The position numbers and the translations under genes were made by a program. The notes below the pieces were generated by a model. It did no database searches and had not been told where the DNA came from. It saw only the letters and a program-made list of their open reading frames with translations. A stretch of 64,000 nucleotides of DNA from Escherichia coli. GTDB taxonomy: Bacteria > Pseudomonadota > Gammaproteobacteria > Enterobacterales > Enterobacteriaceae. Positions 13,268 to 25,684 of this stretch are shown here, in pieces (position 1 is the stretch's first letter; every line of letters begins with the position of its first letter). The stretch lies in assembly GCF_001677475.2 (NCBI RefSeq), contig NZ_CP015229.1. The stretch is one strand, 5' to 3'.

Positions 13268-13352
13268 ATTCGGGCGGATAAGGCGTTTTTGCCTCATCCG
13301 CCGTTCTGTGCACAATGCCTGATGCGACGCTGGCGCGTCTTATCATGCCTAC
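13268..13352. repeat. REP/BIME-type palindromic repeats downstream of proX
   Basis: Two palindromic units incl. gcctgatgcgacgctggcgcgtcttatcatgcctaca. Confidence 0.6.
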
Positions 13353-19299: not shown

Positions 19300-19309
19300 G
19301 GTTGTCAAA

Positions 19310-19331
19310 GGGAGCTGCGGCTCCCTTTTTA
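19310..19331 (+). terminator. Rho-independent terminator downstream of emrB
   Basis: gggagc-tgcg-gctccc stem followed by ttttt, directly after the emrB stop. Confidence 0.6.
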
Positions 19332-19556
19332 TTTGCTCATTCTGCAAACGGTTGTTTTATCCACTCATTCGGTGTATCTTTTCGCCGCCCCAAACTCTTC
19401 CATTCACCATTAACCGGTTCTGAGCATTCGCTCAGGTTGTTAATTCTCTTTTTCTTTCGCCCTCGCTTTCGCGGGTGATACTCACATTTTTCTTTTAACC
19501 CCATAACTCGCACCCTCGCGGGCGTACATTTATTACACACAAAATAATGGATTATT

Positions 19557-20264
19557 ATGAATACCCAACGAAAATACGGGAGAACCTGGCATTACCCTTT
19601 CTCCCCAGGCACCACCAGCGATGACCGTATTAACACCGATTACTGGCAGGATTTACAGGCCATCACGCAATTGGTGCACACAGAAAAACTCGACGGTGAA
19701 AATAACTGCCTTAACCGCTACGGCGTGTTTGCCCGTTCCCATGCCGCGCCTACGCAGTCGGCATGGACCTATAAAATTCGCCAACGCTGGCAACTGCTGA
19801 AAAACGATCTCGGCGATCTGGAGTTGTTTGGTGAAAATCTTTATGCCGTCCATTCGATTGAATATCGCGCCCTGGAGCAGGATTTTTATCTGTTTGCCGT
19901 TCGCTGCCAGGATATGTGGCTGAGCTGGGAAGAGGTGCAGTTTTACGCCGCTCTGTTTGATTTCCCCTGCGTTCCCGAAATCTCCGGCCCGCAGCCGGGG
20001 AATGATGAAAAAAGCTGGCAACGTGATTTTCTGGCGCTGACCAATGCGCGCGGCGCGTTCGATCCCTGGGATACGCAAACCGGGCAACCCTGTACGCTGG
20101 AAGGCATTGTCAGCCGAAATCGTGACGCGTTTTCCGTCGCTGACTTTTCGCATAACGTCTTCAAGTATGTGCGCAAAAATCATGTCAAAACCACCGTGCA
20201 CTGGAAACGACACTGGCAACGGGCGCGGATGGCCCATGAGTTCGCTTATGGAGAACAGTCATGA
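19557..20264 (+). CDS. Minimal ATP-dependent polynucleotide ligase (lysine nucleotidyltransferase family, RNA-ligase-like)
   Basis: 235-aa ORF; motif I K44-L-D-G47, motif III-like F91-G-E-N, motif IV E182-G-I-V, motif V K203-Y-V-R-K207 in canonical order. Confidence 0.7.
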
Positions 20265-21373
20265 TTTGGCAGCTTACCGACGACAAACGCTGGTCGACGC
20301 TACGCCAGCGTTTCAGTTGGGTTGAGGAGATGCATCACACGCCACAAGACCCGGAGCATCATGGTGAAGGTGACGTCGGCGTGCATACGGAAATGGTGCT
20401 TAACGCCCTCGTTACTCAGCCAGAATTCCAGCAACTCCCCGCTCAACAGCAGGAAGTTTTATGGGCGGCGGCGTTATTGCATGATGTTGAAAAGCGCAGC
20501 ACTACCGTGCAGGAAAACGGACGTATTCAGTCTCCAGGCCATGCTCGTCGGGGCGAACTGACGGCCCGACAAATTTTATGGCGCGATATCCCAACGCCGT
20601 TCGTGCTACGCGAGCAAATTGTTGCGCTGGTGCGTCTGCATGGGTTACCGCTATGGTTACTGGAACGTCCGGAACCGGAGCGTTTGCTGCTCACGGCTGC
20701 AATGCGCATCGACACGCGTCTGCTCGCTTTGCTTGCTCGTGCCGACCTGCTTGGTCGCCAAAGCCCGGATCAGCAATCAATGCTGGAACGCATCGATCTG
20801 TTCGAGCTGTTTTGCCATGAGCAACAATGCTGGGGAAAAGTGCGCCCGTTCGTTTCTGATTCCGCACGCTGGCACTACCTGACTCATGAGCAAAGTTCTC
20901 CTGATTTTGTTCCCTGGGGGGCTGAACCTTTTGAGGTTATTTTGCTGTGTGGCTTACCGGGTATGGGCAAAGATCGCTATATCAGTGAACAGTGCCAGGG
21001 AATGGACGTTATCAGCCTTGATGATATGCGGCGGCGAATCAATGCCAGCCCGGACGACAAAACCGCCACCGGGCGTATTGTGCAACAGGCAAAAGAAGAG
21101 GCGCGCGTTTTTTTACGCCAGAAAAAGCCGTTCATCTGGAATGCAACGAACATTACCCGCCAGCTGCGTAGCCAGCTCATCAGCTTGTTTACGGCCTACG
21201 GTGCAAGGGTAAAAATTATCTATCTGGAAGTGCCGTGGGCACAATGGAAGCAGCAAAATGCCAGGCGTGTGTATGCAGTTCCTGAAGTGGTCGTAATGCG
21301 GATGGCCTCAAGGCTGGAAGTTCCTCAACCTGATGAAGCACATAGCGTGGAGTATCGGGTGATTGAAAGGTAA
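20261..21373 (+). CDS. HD-domain phosphoesterase fused to a T4-Pnk-like 5'-OH polynucleotide kinase (HD-Pnk end-healing enzyme)
   Basis: 370-aa ORF; N-terminal HD signature ([11 protein letters not shown] ... LLHDVEK); C-terminal P-loop GLPGMGKD then [24 protein letters not shown] and [16 protein letters not shown], matching T4 Pnk as recalled; start overlaps the ligase stop (ATGA). Confidence 0.7.
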
Positions 21374-21379
21374 AAAAAC

Positions 21380-21416
21380 CGGGCGGTGCTGTCACCTGCC
21401 CGGCTTCTTTTGTTCC
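21380..21416. terminator. Probable bidirectional terminator between the HD-Pnk gene and convergent luxS
   Basis: A-run, ccgggcgg...cctgcccgg imperfect hairpin, then cttcttttgtt, in the 48-bp gap between two convergent stops. Confidence 0.5.
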
Positions 21417-21421
21417 ACTGA

Positions 21422-22005: not shown

Positions 22006-22079
22006 GAAAGACGCGCATTTGTTATCATCATCCCTGAATTCAGAGATGAAATTTTGGCCACTCACGAGTGGCCTTTTTC
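22006..22079 (+). ncRNA. micA: MicA (SraD) small regulatory RNA
   Basis: Recognised sequence gaaagacgcgcatttgttatcatcatccctgaattcagagatgaaattttggccactcacgagtggcctttttc with terminal hairpin; between luxS and gshA on the opposite strand. Confidence 0.75.
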
Positions 22080-24917: not shown

Positions 24918-24994
24918 TGGTGCATCCGGGAGGATTCGAACCTCCGACCGCTCGGTTCGTAGCCGAGTACTCTATCCAGCTGAGCTACGGATGC
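24918..24994 (-). tRNA. argQ: tRNA-Arg (ACG), copy 1
   Basis: Reverse complement gives a 77-nt tRNA ending in CCA with recognised tRNA-Arg sequence; symbol assigned by position. Confidence 0.9.
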
Positions 24995-25096
24995 ATCGGG
25001 AAAACTTATTTTACTGCTGATATTGATACCGCTACTAAAGCCATATCAAATAAGAAAATCCATCTTAACCATCATCACTGATGATTACGGAGAATA

Positions 25097-25173
25097 TGGT
25101 GCATCCGGGAGGATTCGAACCTCCGACCGCTCGGTTCGTAGCCGAGTACTCTATCCAGCTGAGCTACGGATGC
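25097..25173 (-). tRNA. argZ: tRNA-Arg (ACG), copy 2
   Basis: Identical 77-nt repeat. Confidence 0.9.
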
Positions 25174-25235
25174 ATCGGGAAATTTATTTTACTGCTGATA
25201 TTGATACCGCTACTAAAGCCATATCAAGTAAGAGA

Positions 25236-25312
25236 TGGTGCATCCGGGAGGATTCGAACCTCCGACCGCTCGGTTCGTAGCCGAGTACTCTATCCAGCTG
25301 AGCTACGGATGC
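25236..25312 (-). tRNA. argY: tRNA-Arg (ACG), copy 3
   Basis: Identical 77-nt repeat. Confidence 0.9.
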
Positions 25313-25374
25313 ATCGGGAAACTTACTTTACTGCAGATTTTTTGATACCGCTACTAAAGCCGTATCAAGTAAGA

Positions 25375-25395
25375 GATGGTGCATCCGGGAGGATT
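25375..25395 (-). pseudogene. Truncated tRNA-Arg fragment (3'-terminal ~21 nt only)
   Basis: gatggtgcatccgggaggatt matches the 3' end of the tRNA-Arg repeat, then diverges into spacer-like sequence. Confidence 0.6.
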
Positions 25396-25511
25396 ACTCG
25401 CCTTGCGGCTCGCCCTTCGGGCCGTTGCTAAAGCAACGTTATCCTTCCTGGTGCTTGCGGCTAGTACCGCCACCTCTTCCACATCTTCATCGCTGAAGAT
25501 TACGGATAATA

Positions 25512-25588
25512 TGGTGCATCCGGGAGGATTCGAACCTCCGACCGCTCGGTTCGTAGCCGAGTACTCTATCCAGCTGAGCTACGGATGC
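25512..25588 (-). tRNA. argV: tRNA-Arg (ACG), copy 4
   Basis: Identical 77-nt repeat. Confidence 0.9.
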
Positions 25589-25591
25589 AAA

Positions 25592-25684
25592 TGGCGGTGA
25601 GGCGGGGATTCGAACCCCGGATGCAGCTTTTGACCGCATACTCCCTTAGCAGGGGAGCGCCTTCAGCCTCTCGGCCACCTCACC
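25592..25684 (-). tRNA. serV: tRNA-Ser (GCU)
   Basis: 93-nt long-variable-arm tRNA; reverse complement matches the tRNA-Ser(GCU) sequence as recalled. Confidence 0.88.

What the first reader, a model, noticed from the sequence alone, without database searches (positions are those of the whole stretch)
20951..20974. Non-canonical Walker A in the kinase domain: GLPGMGKD (Asp in place of Ser/Thr)
The P-loop reads G-L-P-G-M-G-K-D where canonical P-loop kinases, including T4 Pnk (GKST), have Ser/Thr after the Lys to coordinate Mg. An Asp here is unusual. It may mean altered metal or nucleotide handling, a different NTP donor, or a kinase module that is impaired or regulatory. The DNA reading (aaa gat) is unambiguous in this window.
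Basis: seen in the sequence. Interest (0 to 1): 0.45.

Follow-up and report, generated by a model that had tools for sequence, protein, structure and literature searches.

The report
Swapped metal-site residues in RNA-repair kinase
The odd GKD motif is real and is the conserved hallmark of a known, enzymatically active RNA/DNA end-repair enzyme family (HD-Pnk), where the usual serine-plus-aspartate pair that holds the magnesium has been replaced by an aspartate-plus-asparagine pair.

Summary
Window 20951-20974 does encode GLPGMGKD. It lies in a 370-aa ORF (20261-21373) with an N-terminal HD phosphoesterase domain and a C-terminal P-loop polynucleotide kinase domain. A 235-aa RNA-ligase-family ORF lies upstream and overlaps it by ATGA.

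This is the Escherichia orthologue of Runella slithyformis HD-Pnk (52% identity, same operon). I retrieved the Runella sequence and it also reads GKD, and that enzyme is a purified, active 5'-OH kinase. The "strain-specific/error" and "impaired kinase" readings are therefore not supported.

The further result is that Asp238 is coupled to a second change. The Walker-B-like Asp, which is essential in T4 Pnk as Asp85, is Asn294 here (WNATN).

- Across 150 diverse family representatives, GK[D/N] pairs with Asn in 123 and GK[S/T] pairs with Asp in 19. Six are intermediates.
- Canonical members are scattered through the tree, and 14 of 17 independent contrasts are concordant.
- The pair ranks 11th of 52,003 column pairs for covariation.

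The four other essential kinase residues are conserved.

Best reading: an active kinase whose Mg2+-site carboxylate has moved from Walker B to Walker A. The direct Asp-Mg2+ contact is inferred, not shown. The protein is a new member of a known family. I did not find the coupled swap described in the held literature.

The parts
19301..21416 (.). Accessory cassette (2,116 bp) between the emrB stop and the luxS 3' end. It replaces the 57-bp intergenic region of K-12.
   Evidence: K-12 homology ends at window 19300 and resumes at 21417. The two genes are present in 999 of 5426 complete E. coli genomes, always chromosomal and single copy.
19307..19328 (+). Terminator-like hairpin just after emrB, at the left edge of the cassette.
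   Evidence: Consensus scan, 9-bp stem plus T-run. Consensus match only.
19557..20264 (+). 235-aa ATP-dependent RNA-ligase-family protein (LIG), with motif I KxDG in 'TEKLDGEN'.
   Evidence: ORF. Annotated 'RNA ligase family protein' in E. coli N3. 57% identical to the Runella ligase, which carries Pfam RNA_ligase PF09414. Directly upstream of HD-Pnk on the same strand in 80 of 81 loci.
20261..20264 (+). ATGA overlap of the ligase stop codon with the HD-Pnk start codon (translational coupling likely).
   Evidence: Sequence 'cagtcATGAtttgg'. The same overlap arrangement is described for Runella and seen in L082.
20261..21373 (+). 370-aa HD-Pnk orthologue: N-terminal HD phosphoesterase plus C-terminal P-loop 5'-OH polynucleotide kinase.
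   Evidence: 52% identity over 367 aa to Runella slithyformis HD-Pnk, E 8e-138. Pfam AAA_33 and weak HD. NCBIfam partial hits to bacterial Pnkp, PSTK and the CCA-enzyme HD region.
20345..20758 (+). HD domain core (residues 29-166) with conserved H34, H74-D75 (codons 20480-20485), H94, H127 and D162.
   Evidence: Invariant or near-invariant columns in A1, A2 and A4. 'LLHDVEKRS' confirmed by translation. The profile hits the CCA/A-adding enzyme HD region.
20936..21325 (+). P-loop polynucleotide kinase domain (residues 226-355).
   Evidence: Pfam AAA_33 E 3.5e-30. Foldseek: CthPnk 4GP6 TM 0.75, rmsd 2.6 A; T4 Pnk 1LY1 TM 0.75.
20951..20974 (+). Walker A / P-loop GLPGMGKD. K237 is codon 20969-20971 and D238 is codon 20972-20974 (the finding).
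21020..21031 (+). D254-x-x-R257, the general-base Asp and acceptor-phosphate Arg (T4 D35/R38, CthPnk D38/R41).
   Evidence: Translation LDDMR. D and R kept in 148 of 151 aligned sequences. Roles taken from CthPnk and T4 Pnk.
21131..21151 (+). Walker-B-like strand end F-I-W-N294-A-T-N. N294 (codon 21140-21142) replaces the essential Asp of canonical Pnks and covaries with D238.
   Evidence: Translation. Aligns to CthPnk VVDATN and PSTK IVDDTN. Strand 291-294 in the model. Covariation. T4 Asp85 is essential.
21266..21268 (+). R336, lid arginine equivalent to CthPnk Arg120 / T4 Arg126 (gamma/beta-phosphate contact).
   Evidence: Translation [10 protein letters not shown]. Alignment to CthPnk 'RNKNRTDR'. 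Near-invariant in A4.
21379..21411 (+). GC-rich hairpin (CCGGGCGGTG...CACCTGCCCGG) plus T-rich tail after the HD-Pnk stop, at the right edge of the cassette. Probable terminator, shared with convergent luxS.
   Evidence: Read directly from the sequence printed. Not reported by the consensus scan (no site there in its output), so it rests on my reading alone.

Best explanation
The ORF at 20261-21373 is the Escherichia orthologue of HD-Pnk, a bifunctional nucleic-acid end-healing enzyme. Its N-terminal HD domain removes 2',3'-cyclic, 3' and 2' phosphates. Its C-terminal P-loop domain phosphorylates 5'-OH ends. It is co-translated with an upstream ATP-dependent ligase-like protein as a heal-and-seal cassette.

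GKD is not a defect. It is the majority state of the family and is one half of a coupled two-residue exchange in the Mg2+-NTP site. The Walker A residue after the Lys is Asp (D238) instead of Ser/Thr. The Walker-B-like residue capping strand 291-294 is Asn (N294) instead of Asp.

Proposed mechanism (inferred): the D238 carboxylate takes over the inner-sphere Mg2+ contact normally made by the Ser hydroxyl. N294 donates a hydrogen bond to it. The canonical Ser-OH...Asp(-) pair therefore becomes an inverted Asp(-)...H2N-Asn pair, with one carboxylate still in the site. K237, D254 (general base), R257 and R336 then catalyse in-line phosphoryl transfer as in T4 Pnk and CthPnk.

Shown: the motif, its conservation, the covariation, the fold, the orthology and the operon. 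Taken from literature: the kinase activity of a GKD-type member. Inferred: the direct Asp-metal ligation and the Asp-Asn hydrogen bond.
For: Orthology:
- 52% identity over the full length to Runella HD-Pnk, and 57% between the partner ligases.
- Same overlapping-ORF layout.
- The ligase is upstream in 80 of 81 loci.

Activity of a GKD-type enzyme:
- Runella HD-Pnk reads GLPGTGKD...FVFNATN.
- It was purified and characterised as a 5'-OH polynucleotide kinase / 2',3'-phosphoesterase.

Conservation:
- 117 GKD and 1 GKN among the 118 close homologues that retain the P-loop region.
- All 212 scored close relatives are D+N or N+N.

Coupling:
- In 150 representatives of clusters below 50% identity: KD+N 118, KN+N 5, K[S/T]+D 19, mixed 6.
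- Fisher p = 1e-18.
- Canonical members are scattered in about 14 places on a tree built without the two columns, with 18 and 19 Fitch changes.
- Canonical members are no closer to each other than to variant members (0.37 vs 0.36 identity).
- 14 of 17 independent contrasts are concordant, and the other 3 are intermediates.
- APC-corrected MI rank is 11 of 52,003 pairs. Column 294 explains 0.74 of the K+1-class entropy, and the next best column explains 0.29.

Structural equivalence:
- Model pLDDT 97.4, with N294 at the strand C-cap.
- TM 0.75 to CthPnk and T4 Pnk.
- Sequence alignment puts D238 on Ser22 and N294 on the VVDATN Asp.

Importance of the two positions in canonical enzymes:
- Ser22 is the sole protein ligand of Mg2+ in CthPnk.
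- Ser16 and Asp85 are two of the six essential residues of T4 Pnk.
- [S/T]K+1 and Asp-WB are an H-bonded pair across P-loop NTPases.

The other four essential residues are conserved.
Against: - No structure of any HD-Pnk exists, and I could not read coordinates of the model. The Asp-Mg2+ and Asp-Asn contacts are therefore untested.
- The primary biochemical paper is not in the library. Its details (Mg2+, any NTP) rest on my memory of the abstract, and I do not know whether it already comments on GKD.
- The tree is a simple NJ tree at 35-50% identity, so the number of independent switches is approximate.
- Intermediates (GKS+N x3, GKD+S x2, GKS+S x1) show the coupling is not absolute.
- Activity of the Escherichia protein itself is untested.
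- The Runella ligase partner did not seal any standard substrate tested, so the biological substrate of the cassette is unknown.
Confidence: 0.72

Rival explanations
1. GKD changes cofactor specificity. The carboxylate ligand selects a different divalent metal (for example Mn2+ or a transition metal) or a different phosphate donor than canonical GKS/T polynucleotide kinases use. This is the adaptive reason for the motif.
For: A carboxylate is a different ligand from a hydroxyl. The position is the only protein ligand of the metal in CthPnk. The two states have switched repeatedly in the family, which could reflect adaptation to different conditions.
Against: By my recollection of the 2017 abstract (paper not held), the GKD-type Runella enzyme uses Mg2+ and any NTP. 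[quoted passage not shown] No difference in donor or metal is therefore evident. Nucleobase contacts lie in the lid, not the P-loop.
Confidence: 0.15
2. The kinase module is catalytically impaired or regulatory (a nucleotide-binding switch). The Asp is a loss-of-function substitution tolerated because only the HD domain matters.
For: Ser16 and Asp85 are each essential in T4 Pnk, and both are replaced here. Asn at K+1 in torsinA and DnaC goes with very low ATPase activity. One family member (P0172) has a fully degenerate P-loop and no DxxR, so kinase loss can occur in this family.
Against: K237, D254, R257 and R336 are invariant or nearly so across sequences only about 35% identical. That is not expected for a dead site. 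The characterised Runella enzyme has the same GKD+N state and is a 5'-OH polynucleotide kinase. The tight covariation indicates compensation, not decay.
Confidence: 0.05
3. D238 does not bind the metal. As in adenylate kinases (Gly at K+1), a water is the fourth Mg2+ ligand, and the Asp/Asn pair has a purely structural role or suppresses futile NTP hydrolysis.
For: NMP kinases work with a water in place of the Ser/Thr ligand, and that loss has been argued to suppress futile ATP hydrolysis. T4 Asp85 was assigned a local-structure role rather than a metal role. GKN+N members exist, and Asn is a poorer metal ligand.
Against: Asp/Asn is strictly kept at K+1 in the variant state and is never Gly or Ala, which argues for a specific side-chain function. 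The complementary change at the residue that normally H-bonds K+1 fits a direct replacement of the pair.
Confidence: 0.2
4. The apparent coupling of positions 238 and 294 is a phylogenetic artefact: one or two ancient splits, with the tree too poorly resolved to show it.
For: Sequences are 35-50% identical and the tree is NJ without support values. Shared ancestry inflates Fisher and MI statistics.
Against: Canonical members are not more similar to one another than to variant members (0.37 vs 0.36). Their nearest neighbours are mostly variant. Column 294 tracks the K+1 class far better than any other column (0.74 vs 0.29 or less). A clade split would instead drag many columns along.
Confidence: 0.07

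Closest known systems
Runella slithyformis HD-Pnk (Munir & Shuman 2017, J Bacteriol 199:e00739-16) with its upstream LIG
   Same: Same domain order and size (368 vs 370 aa) and 52% identity end to end. Same GKD + (F/W)NATN state. Same DxxR. Same upstream ligase (57% identity) with overlapping ORFs.
   Different: The Runella cluster also has Tpt1 and an MTase-HIT gene upstream and RecQ downstream. The Escherichia cassette is only LIG + HD-Pnk, inserted between emrB and luxS. Loci from the related genera Larkinella and Dyadobacter also lack Tpt1. The Escherichia protein is uncharacterised.
Clostridium thermocellum Pnkp kinase domain (CthPnk; PDB 4GP6, 4MDE/4MDF)
   Same: Best structural match (TM 0.75, rmsd 2.6 A). 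P-loop Lys, DxxR general base and Arg, xATN motif and lid Arg all align.
   Different: CthPnk has GKS (Ser22 is the sole protein Mg2+ ligand) and VVDATN. It is fused to a metallophosphoesterase and a ligase rather than an HD domain. The nucleobase-stacking Arg116 is Gln332 here.
Bacteriophage T4 polynucleotide kinase (kinase domain; PDB 1LY1, 1LTQ)
   Same: Same fold (TM 0.75). Four of its six essential residues (Lys15, Asp35, Arg38, Arg126) have conserved counterparts: K237, D254, R257 and R336.
   Different: The other two essential residues, Ser16 and Asp85, are Asp238 and Asn294 here. T4 Pnk is fused to a DxDxT phosphatase, not an HD domain.
Clp1 polynucleotide kinase (C. elegans; PDB 4OI1)
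   Same: A polynucleotide 5'-kinase whose Walker B position is Asn, with the lost carboxylate supplied from elsewhere. Fungal orthologues show the reciprocal Asp/Asn arrangement. This is a precedent for carboxylate relocation around the P-loop metal site.
   Different: Clp1 keeps Thr at K+1, and the relocated carboxylate is a Glu on a neighbouring strand. Here the carboxylate sits at K+1 itself. Different P-loop kinase clade.
Other K+1 exceptions: adenylate/NMP kinases (Gly), torsinA and DnaC (Asn)
   Same: They deviate from GK[S/T] at the same position. GKN also occurs in this family (6 of about 370 sequences).
   Different: None has Asp. NMP kinases use a water ligand, and torsinA and DnaC are very weak ATPases. 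Here the deviation is paired with a Walker B change in a family with a demonstrably active member.

Membership tests
HD-Pnk (Runella-type bifunctional end-healing enzyme) | Full-length sequence similarity to the biochemical exemplar, with the same domain order and a similar size | tested here: met
   52% identity over 367 aa, E 8e-138; 370 vs 368 aa.
HD-Pnk (Runella-type bifunctional end-healing enzyme) | N-terminal HD phosphohydrolase module with the H...HD...D metal ligands | tested here: met
   H34, H74-D75, H94, H127 and D162 are invariant or near-invariant. Library hits are weak: Pfam HD E 0.02, HDIG E 0.0014, CCA-enzyme HD region E 4.5e-5. Many homologues carry PF01966.
HD-Pnk (Runella-type bifunctional end-healing enzyme) | C-terminal P-loop polynucleotide kinase module (P-loop Lys, DxxR) | tested here: met
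   AAA_33 E 3.5e-30. K237, D254 and R257 present. Fold TM 0.75 to CthPnk and T4 Pnk.
HD-Pnk (Runella-type bifunctional end-healing enzyme) | Operon-like linkage to an upstream ATP-dependent ligase gene | tested here: met
   LIG at 19557-20264 overlaps HD-Pnk by ATGA. The linkage holds in 80 of 81 loci.
HD-Pnk (Runella-type bifunctional end-healing enzyme) | 5'-OH kinase and 2',3'-phosphoesterase activities | not testable with these tools
   Only inferred from orthology to the purified Runella enzyme.
Canonical Walker A P-loop NTPase/kinase motif GxxxxGK[S/T] with hhhhD Walker B | Ser or Thr immediately after the P-loop Lys | tested here: not met
   Asp238. It is Asp or Asn in 127 of the 151 sequences in the deep alignment.
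Canonical Walker A P-loop NTPase/kinase motif GxxxxGK[S/T] with hhhhD Walker B | Asp (or Glu) capping the hydrophobic Walker B strand | tested here: not met
   F-I-W-N294, at the strand 291-294 C-cap. The aligned residue is Asp in CthPnk and PSTK.
Canonical Walker A P-loop NTPase/kinase motif GxxxxGK[S/T] with hhhhD Walker B | P-loop fold: strand, Gly-rich loop with Lys, then helix | tested here: met
   Strand 224-230, loop 231-237, helix 237-244 at pLDDT above 95. Foldseek probability 1.00 to many P-loop kinases.
T4 Pnk / bacterial Pnkp clade of 5'-OH polynucleotide kinases | The six residues essential in T4 Pnk (Lys15, Ser16, Asp35, Arg38, Asp85, Arg126) | tested here: inconclusive
   Four are conserved (K237, D254, R257, R336). 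Two are replaced in a coupled way (D238, N294). It works like a member but deviates at two defining positions.
Known anti-phage defence systems (PADLOC) | Match to a PADLOC protein model | tested here: not met
   No hit for either protein at E <= 0.01.

The most novel reading that the evidence does not exclude
GK[D/N] + Walker-B Asn is a distinct, fully functional architecture of the P-loop Mg2+ site: an inverted K+1/Walker-B pair with the carboxylate on the Walker A helix. It has interconverted with the canonical GK[S/T] + Asp architecture many times within one enzyme family, via observable intermediates (GKN+N, GKS+N). It would be the first natural Asp-at-K+1 class of P-loop phosphotransferase. 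It would also be a ready-made natural experiment on whether the conserved Ser/Thr-Asp pair acts as a metal ligand, a structural clamp or a proton relay.
Probability: 0.5. Interest if true: 0.6.

Novelty: new member of a known kind. Interest (0 to 1): 0.5.

Why it matters
**For annotation.** The "ATP-binding protein / RNA ligase family protein" pair between emrB and luxS is present in about 18% of complete E. coli genomes. It can be named as an HD-Pnk/LIG nucleic-acid end-healing and sealing cassette. Its GKD motif should not be read as a pseudo-kinase signature.

**For enzymology.** Two of the six residues that are individually essential in T4 polynucleotide kinase are exchanged together in an active relative, and evolution has toggled between the two solutions repeatedly. 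This gives a simple mutant cycle: D238S, N294D and the double mutant. That cycle would test what the near-universal Walker A Ser/Thr-Walker B Asp pair actually does.

**For motif-based screens.** GxxxxGK[ST] patterns will miss this large family: 882 clusters at E <= 1e-30 in a 50%-identity library.

Tried and rejected
- **Primary paper.** The HD-Pnk paper is not held (PMC5237116 and its DOI). Its biochemical details are cited from memory and from a secondary description.
- **Finding the Runella sequence, failed routes.**
  - The species-genome scan kept only the best 80 loci, and Runella was not among them.
  - A Spirosomaceae-led protein search did not list it by name.
  - A plasmid search found the family on megaplasmids of other taxa but not in Runella.
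  - Larkinella and Dyadobacter loci have no Tpt1 to use as a handle.
- **Finding the Runella sequence, route that worked.** That led to the native protein and then to the genomic locus.
- **Curated libraries.** NCBIfam has no dedicated family for either protein, only sub-threshold partial hits. PADLOC has nothing.
- **Literature searches.** "GKD" plus "Walker A" plus "kinase" found nothing relevant. A search for newer work on the operon found only a general jumbo-phage review.
- **Promoter scan.** No consensus sigma-70 promoter was found upstream of the ligase, so the expression signal is unresolved.
- **Rejected readings.**
  - Sequencing error or strain-specific substitution is rejected by conservation.
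  - Pseudo-kinase is rejected by conserved catalytic residues and the active Runella orthologue.
  - The proximity of the tRNA-Arg cluster as a functional clue is rejected because the cassette sits in unrelated contexts in other taxa.
Full report
**1. The observation**

Window 20951-20974 on the + strand translates to GLPGMGKD, with aaa (Lys) followed by gat (Asp). The octet lies in frame in a 370-aa ORF, 20261-21373. The C-terminal part of this ORF (residues 226-355) matches Pfam AAA_33 at E 3.5e-30. The N-terminal part gives a weak HD-domain match.

In sequence and profile searches of the PDB, the octet aligns with the P-loops of solved polynucleotide/RNA kinases. These include C. thermocellum Pnkp kinase (GSSGSGKST) and archaeal PSTK (GLPGVGKST). 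So it is a true Walker A position and the Asp occupies the "K+1" site.

**2. What the gene is**

A 235-aa ORF (19557-20264) lies immediately upstream. It is annotated in E. coli as an RNA ligase family protein and carries a KxDG motif. Its stop codon overlaps the start of the 370-aa ORF as ATGA. The pair sits between emrB and luxS.

Comparison with K-12 shows that homology stops exactly at the emrB stop (19300) and resumes at 21417. The cassette is therefore the 2,116-bp segment 19301-21416, replacing 57 bp of K-12 intergenic DNA. The two genes occur in 999 of 5426 complete E. coli genomes, always once and on the chromosome. The best identity to the window is only 98%. The flanking luxS-gshA region is at most 99.2% identical to any complete E. 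coli genome.

This architecture is the one Shuman's laboratory described for Runella slithyformis. [quoted passage not shown] It is encoded just after a ligase ORF whose 3' end overlaps its 5' end.

**3. Getting the Runella sequence**

The primary paper is not in the library, so I retrieved the Runella gene itself:

- I pulled the RslTpt1 sequence from PDB 7KW8.
- I found the native protein.
- I fetched its chromosomal locus.

That locus shows Tpt1, MTase-HIT, a ~150-nt spacer, an RNA_ligase gene and an overlapping 368-aa AAA_33 gene, exactly as published. The window protein is 52% identical to Runella HD-Pnk over its whole length (E 8e-138). The two ligases are 57% identical. In 80 of 81 genomic loci from Enterobacterales and Bacteroidota, the ligase is the immediate upstream neighbour on the same strand. 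The window gene is therefore an HD-Pnk orthologue.

**4. Is GKD strain-specific, an error, or a sign of a dead kinase? No.**

- Of the 118 of 120 closest homologues (55-97% identity) that retain the P-loop region, 117 read GKD and one reads GKN. These come from Escherichia, Salmonella, Citrobacter, Serratia, Providencia, Xenorhabdus and Bacteroidota. None has Ser or Thr.
- Many enterics also have Ala for the first Gly (ALPGMGKD).
- All 83 GKD-type DNA loci scored encode the Asp as GAT or GAC.
- Runella HD-Pnk itself reads GLPGTGKD. It was purified and characterised as a 5'-OH polynucleotide kinase. By my recollection of its abstract, it uses Mg2+ and any NTP.
- The remaining catalytic apparatus is intact and conserved down to ~35% identity: K237, D254-x-x-R257 (general base and acceptor Arg; kept in 148 of 151 aligned sequences) and the lid R336.

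**5. The second half of the story: a coupled change at Walker B**

The family alignment shows an invariant W-N-A-T-N (N294). This lies exactly where CthPnk has V-D-A-T-N and PSTK has V-D-D-T-N. In a very confident AlphaFold model (pLDDT 97.4, pTM 0.94), N294 caps strand 291-294, the classical "hhhhD" Walker B position. D238 begins the helix after the P-loop.

In T4 Pnk the six essential kinase residues are Lys15, Ser16, Asp35, Arg38, Asp85 and Arg126. Ser16 and Asp85 correspond to D238 and N294. In CthPnk the P-loop Ser is the only protein ligand of the octahedral Mg2+, and its mutation kills the enzyme. A survey of P-loop NTPases describes [Ser/Thr]K+1 and the Walker B Asp as a conserved hydrogen-bonded pair. 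It lists only Gly (NMP kinases) and Asn (torsinA, DnaC) as K+1 exceptions.

**6. Covariation**

A full-library profile search returned 882 clusters at E <= 1e-30, and I analysed the best 150 representatives. These are mutually below 50% identical.

| State (Walker A + Walker B) | Count |
|---|---|
| GKD + Asn | 118 |
| GKN + Asn | 5 |
| GK[S/T] + Asp | 19 |
| GKS + Asn | 3 |
| GKD + Ser | 2 |
| GKS + Ser | 1 |
| Fully degenerate | 1 |
| GKD, Walker-B column gapped (fragments) | 2 |

These counts, cover the 150 representatives plus the window protein.

- On an NJ tree built without these two columns, the canonical members fall in about 14 separate places. Fitch parsimony gives 18 and 19 changes for the two sites.
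- Canonical members are no more similar to each other than to variant members (0.37 vs 0.36). Their nearest neighbours are mostly variant.
- In 17 phylogenetically independent contrasts that differ at K+1, 14 also differ concordantly at Walker B. The other three are the intermediates.
- In an unbiased scan, the 238/294 pair ranks 11th of 52,003 pairs by APC-corrected mutual information. Column 294 explains 0.74 of the K+1-class entropy, against at most 0.29 for any other column.
- Three of four sampled K+1 Ser codons are AGC. Together with the GKN and GKS+Asn intermediates, this fits a single-nucleotide path GAY (Asp) to AAY (Asn) to AGY (Ser). This last point is suggestive only (n = 4).

**7. 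Mechanism**

*Shown:* the fold, the positional equivalence, the conservation and the coupling.

*Inferred:* the carboxylate that canonical enzymes place at Walker B has moved to Walker A. There D238 replaces the Ser hydroxyl as the Mg2+ ligand, and N294 hydrogen-bonds to it. This inverts the donor/acceptor polarity of the pair while keeping one negative charge in the site. Phosphoryl transfer would otherwise follow the T4/CthPnk scheme:

- Lys and Mg2+ stabilise the transition state.
- D254 activates the 5'-OH.
- R257 holds the acceptor.
- R336 holds the gamma phosphate.

Clp1 is a precedent for relocating the Walker B carboxylate in a polynucleotide kinase, but it keeps Thr at K+1.

*Rivals:*

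- Altered metal or donor specificity. There is no sign of it, since both GKD-type Runella HD-Pnk and GKS-type CthPnk are NTP-promiscuous.
- A water-ligand or anti-hydrolysis role.
- A pseudo-kinase.
- A phylogenetic artefact.

**8. Comparison with what is known, and novelty**

The closest structures for the kinase domain are listed below. All are canonical GK[S/T] enzymes.

- CthPnk (TM 0.75, rmsd 2.6 A).
- T4 Pnk (TM 0.75).
- Mammalian PNKP.
- Mucorales RNA kinases.
- PSTK.

The HD half resembles the HD region of CCA/A-adding enzymes. Nothing solved covers the whole protein.

The protein passes every testable membership criterion for HD-Pnk. It fails two defining features of the textbook Walker A/B motifs while keeping the fold. 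It is thus a new, uncharacterised member of a known family.

I did not find the GKD/Asn coupling described in the held literature. I could not read the 2017 paper, so it may already note the motif.

**9. Limits**

- I had no access to model coordinates, and no HD-Pnk structure exists.
- The tree is approximate.
- The Escherichia enzyme is untested.
- The cassette's natural substrate is unknown, because the Runella ligase adenylylates itself but seals none of the standard substrates tried.

Noticed in passing
window 19301-21416: The LIG/HD-Pnk pair is a discrete 2.1-kb accessory segment that replaces K-12's 57-bp emrB-luxS spacer and its hairpin. It brings its own hairpins at both ends. It is present in 999 of 5426 complete E. 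coli genomes, and the window's copy is at most 98% identical to any of them.
   Followed up: partly
loci L002-L081 versus window 19557-21373: Between Escherichia and Bacteroidota, the ligase is consistently more conserved (about 55-70% identity) than HD-Pnk (about 50-58%). Both values are high for such distant phyla, which suggests horizontal spread of the cassette. The family also sits on megaplasmids or chromids of Ralstonia, Pseudomonas, Variovorax, Vibrio and others.
   Followed up: partly
protein P0172: One family representative has a fully degenerate P-loop (SLPYADRE) and lacks the DxxR motif, while keeping the rest of the protein. It is probably a kinase-dead HD-only derivative.
   Followed up: no
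L084 1-7044 (P0195): A canonical-state (GKS + Asp) family member lies on a 548-kb metagenomic scaffold among ERF recombinase, an AAA_23 protein and small unknown ORFs. A divergent RNA ligase (31% identity) sits 1 kb upstream, separated by three small ORFs. This is a phage-like context, possibly a very large phage or prophage.
   Followed up: no
L086 3001-4260 (P0232): An intermediate-state member (GKS + Asn, 419 aa) has no ligase neighbour. It is flanked by two SBP_bac_5 solute-binding genes and a sensor kinase, so not all family members are in heal-and-seal operons.
   Followed up: no
L082 8859-15729 (Runella slithyformis CP002859.1): In Runella an HNH_4 nuclease-domain ORF overlaps the start of Tpt1, upstream of the published four-gene cluster. 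A RecQ helicase gene follows HD-Pnk 246 nt downstream. These are possible extra members of that cluster.
   Followed up: no
homologues P0013-P0052: In Salmonella, Citrobacter, Kosakonia, Serratia and related enterics, the first Gly of the P-loop is Ala (S/C-ALPGMGKD). Escherichia, Providencia, Xenorhabdus and Bacteroidota keep Gly.
   Followed up: no
window 21254-21256 (Q332): The lid residue that stacks on the NTP nucleobase in CthPnk (Arg116) aligns with an invariant Gln in this family. The donor-base contact must therefore differ from CthPnk.
   Followed up: no
window 22006-22077, 13272-13349, 24921-25684: Rfam finds MicA sRNA between luxS and gshA, a naRNA4 (CssrE) element, and a cluster of five tRNA matches (annotated as four tRNA-Arg and one tRNA-Ser in E. 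coli N3). The cluster is about 3.5 kb from the RNA-repair cassette. tRNA-Arg is the target of colicin D (my own knowledge). The proximity is probably coincidental, because the cassette sits elsewhere in other taxa.
   Followed up: partly
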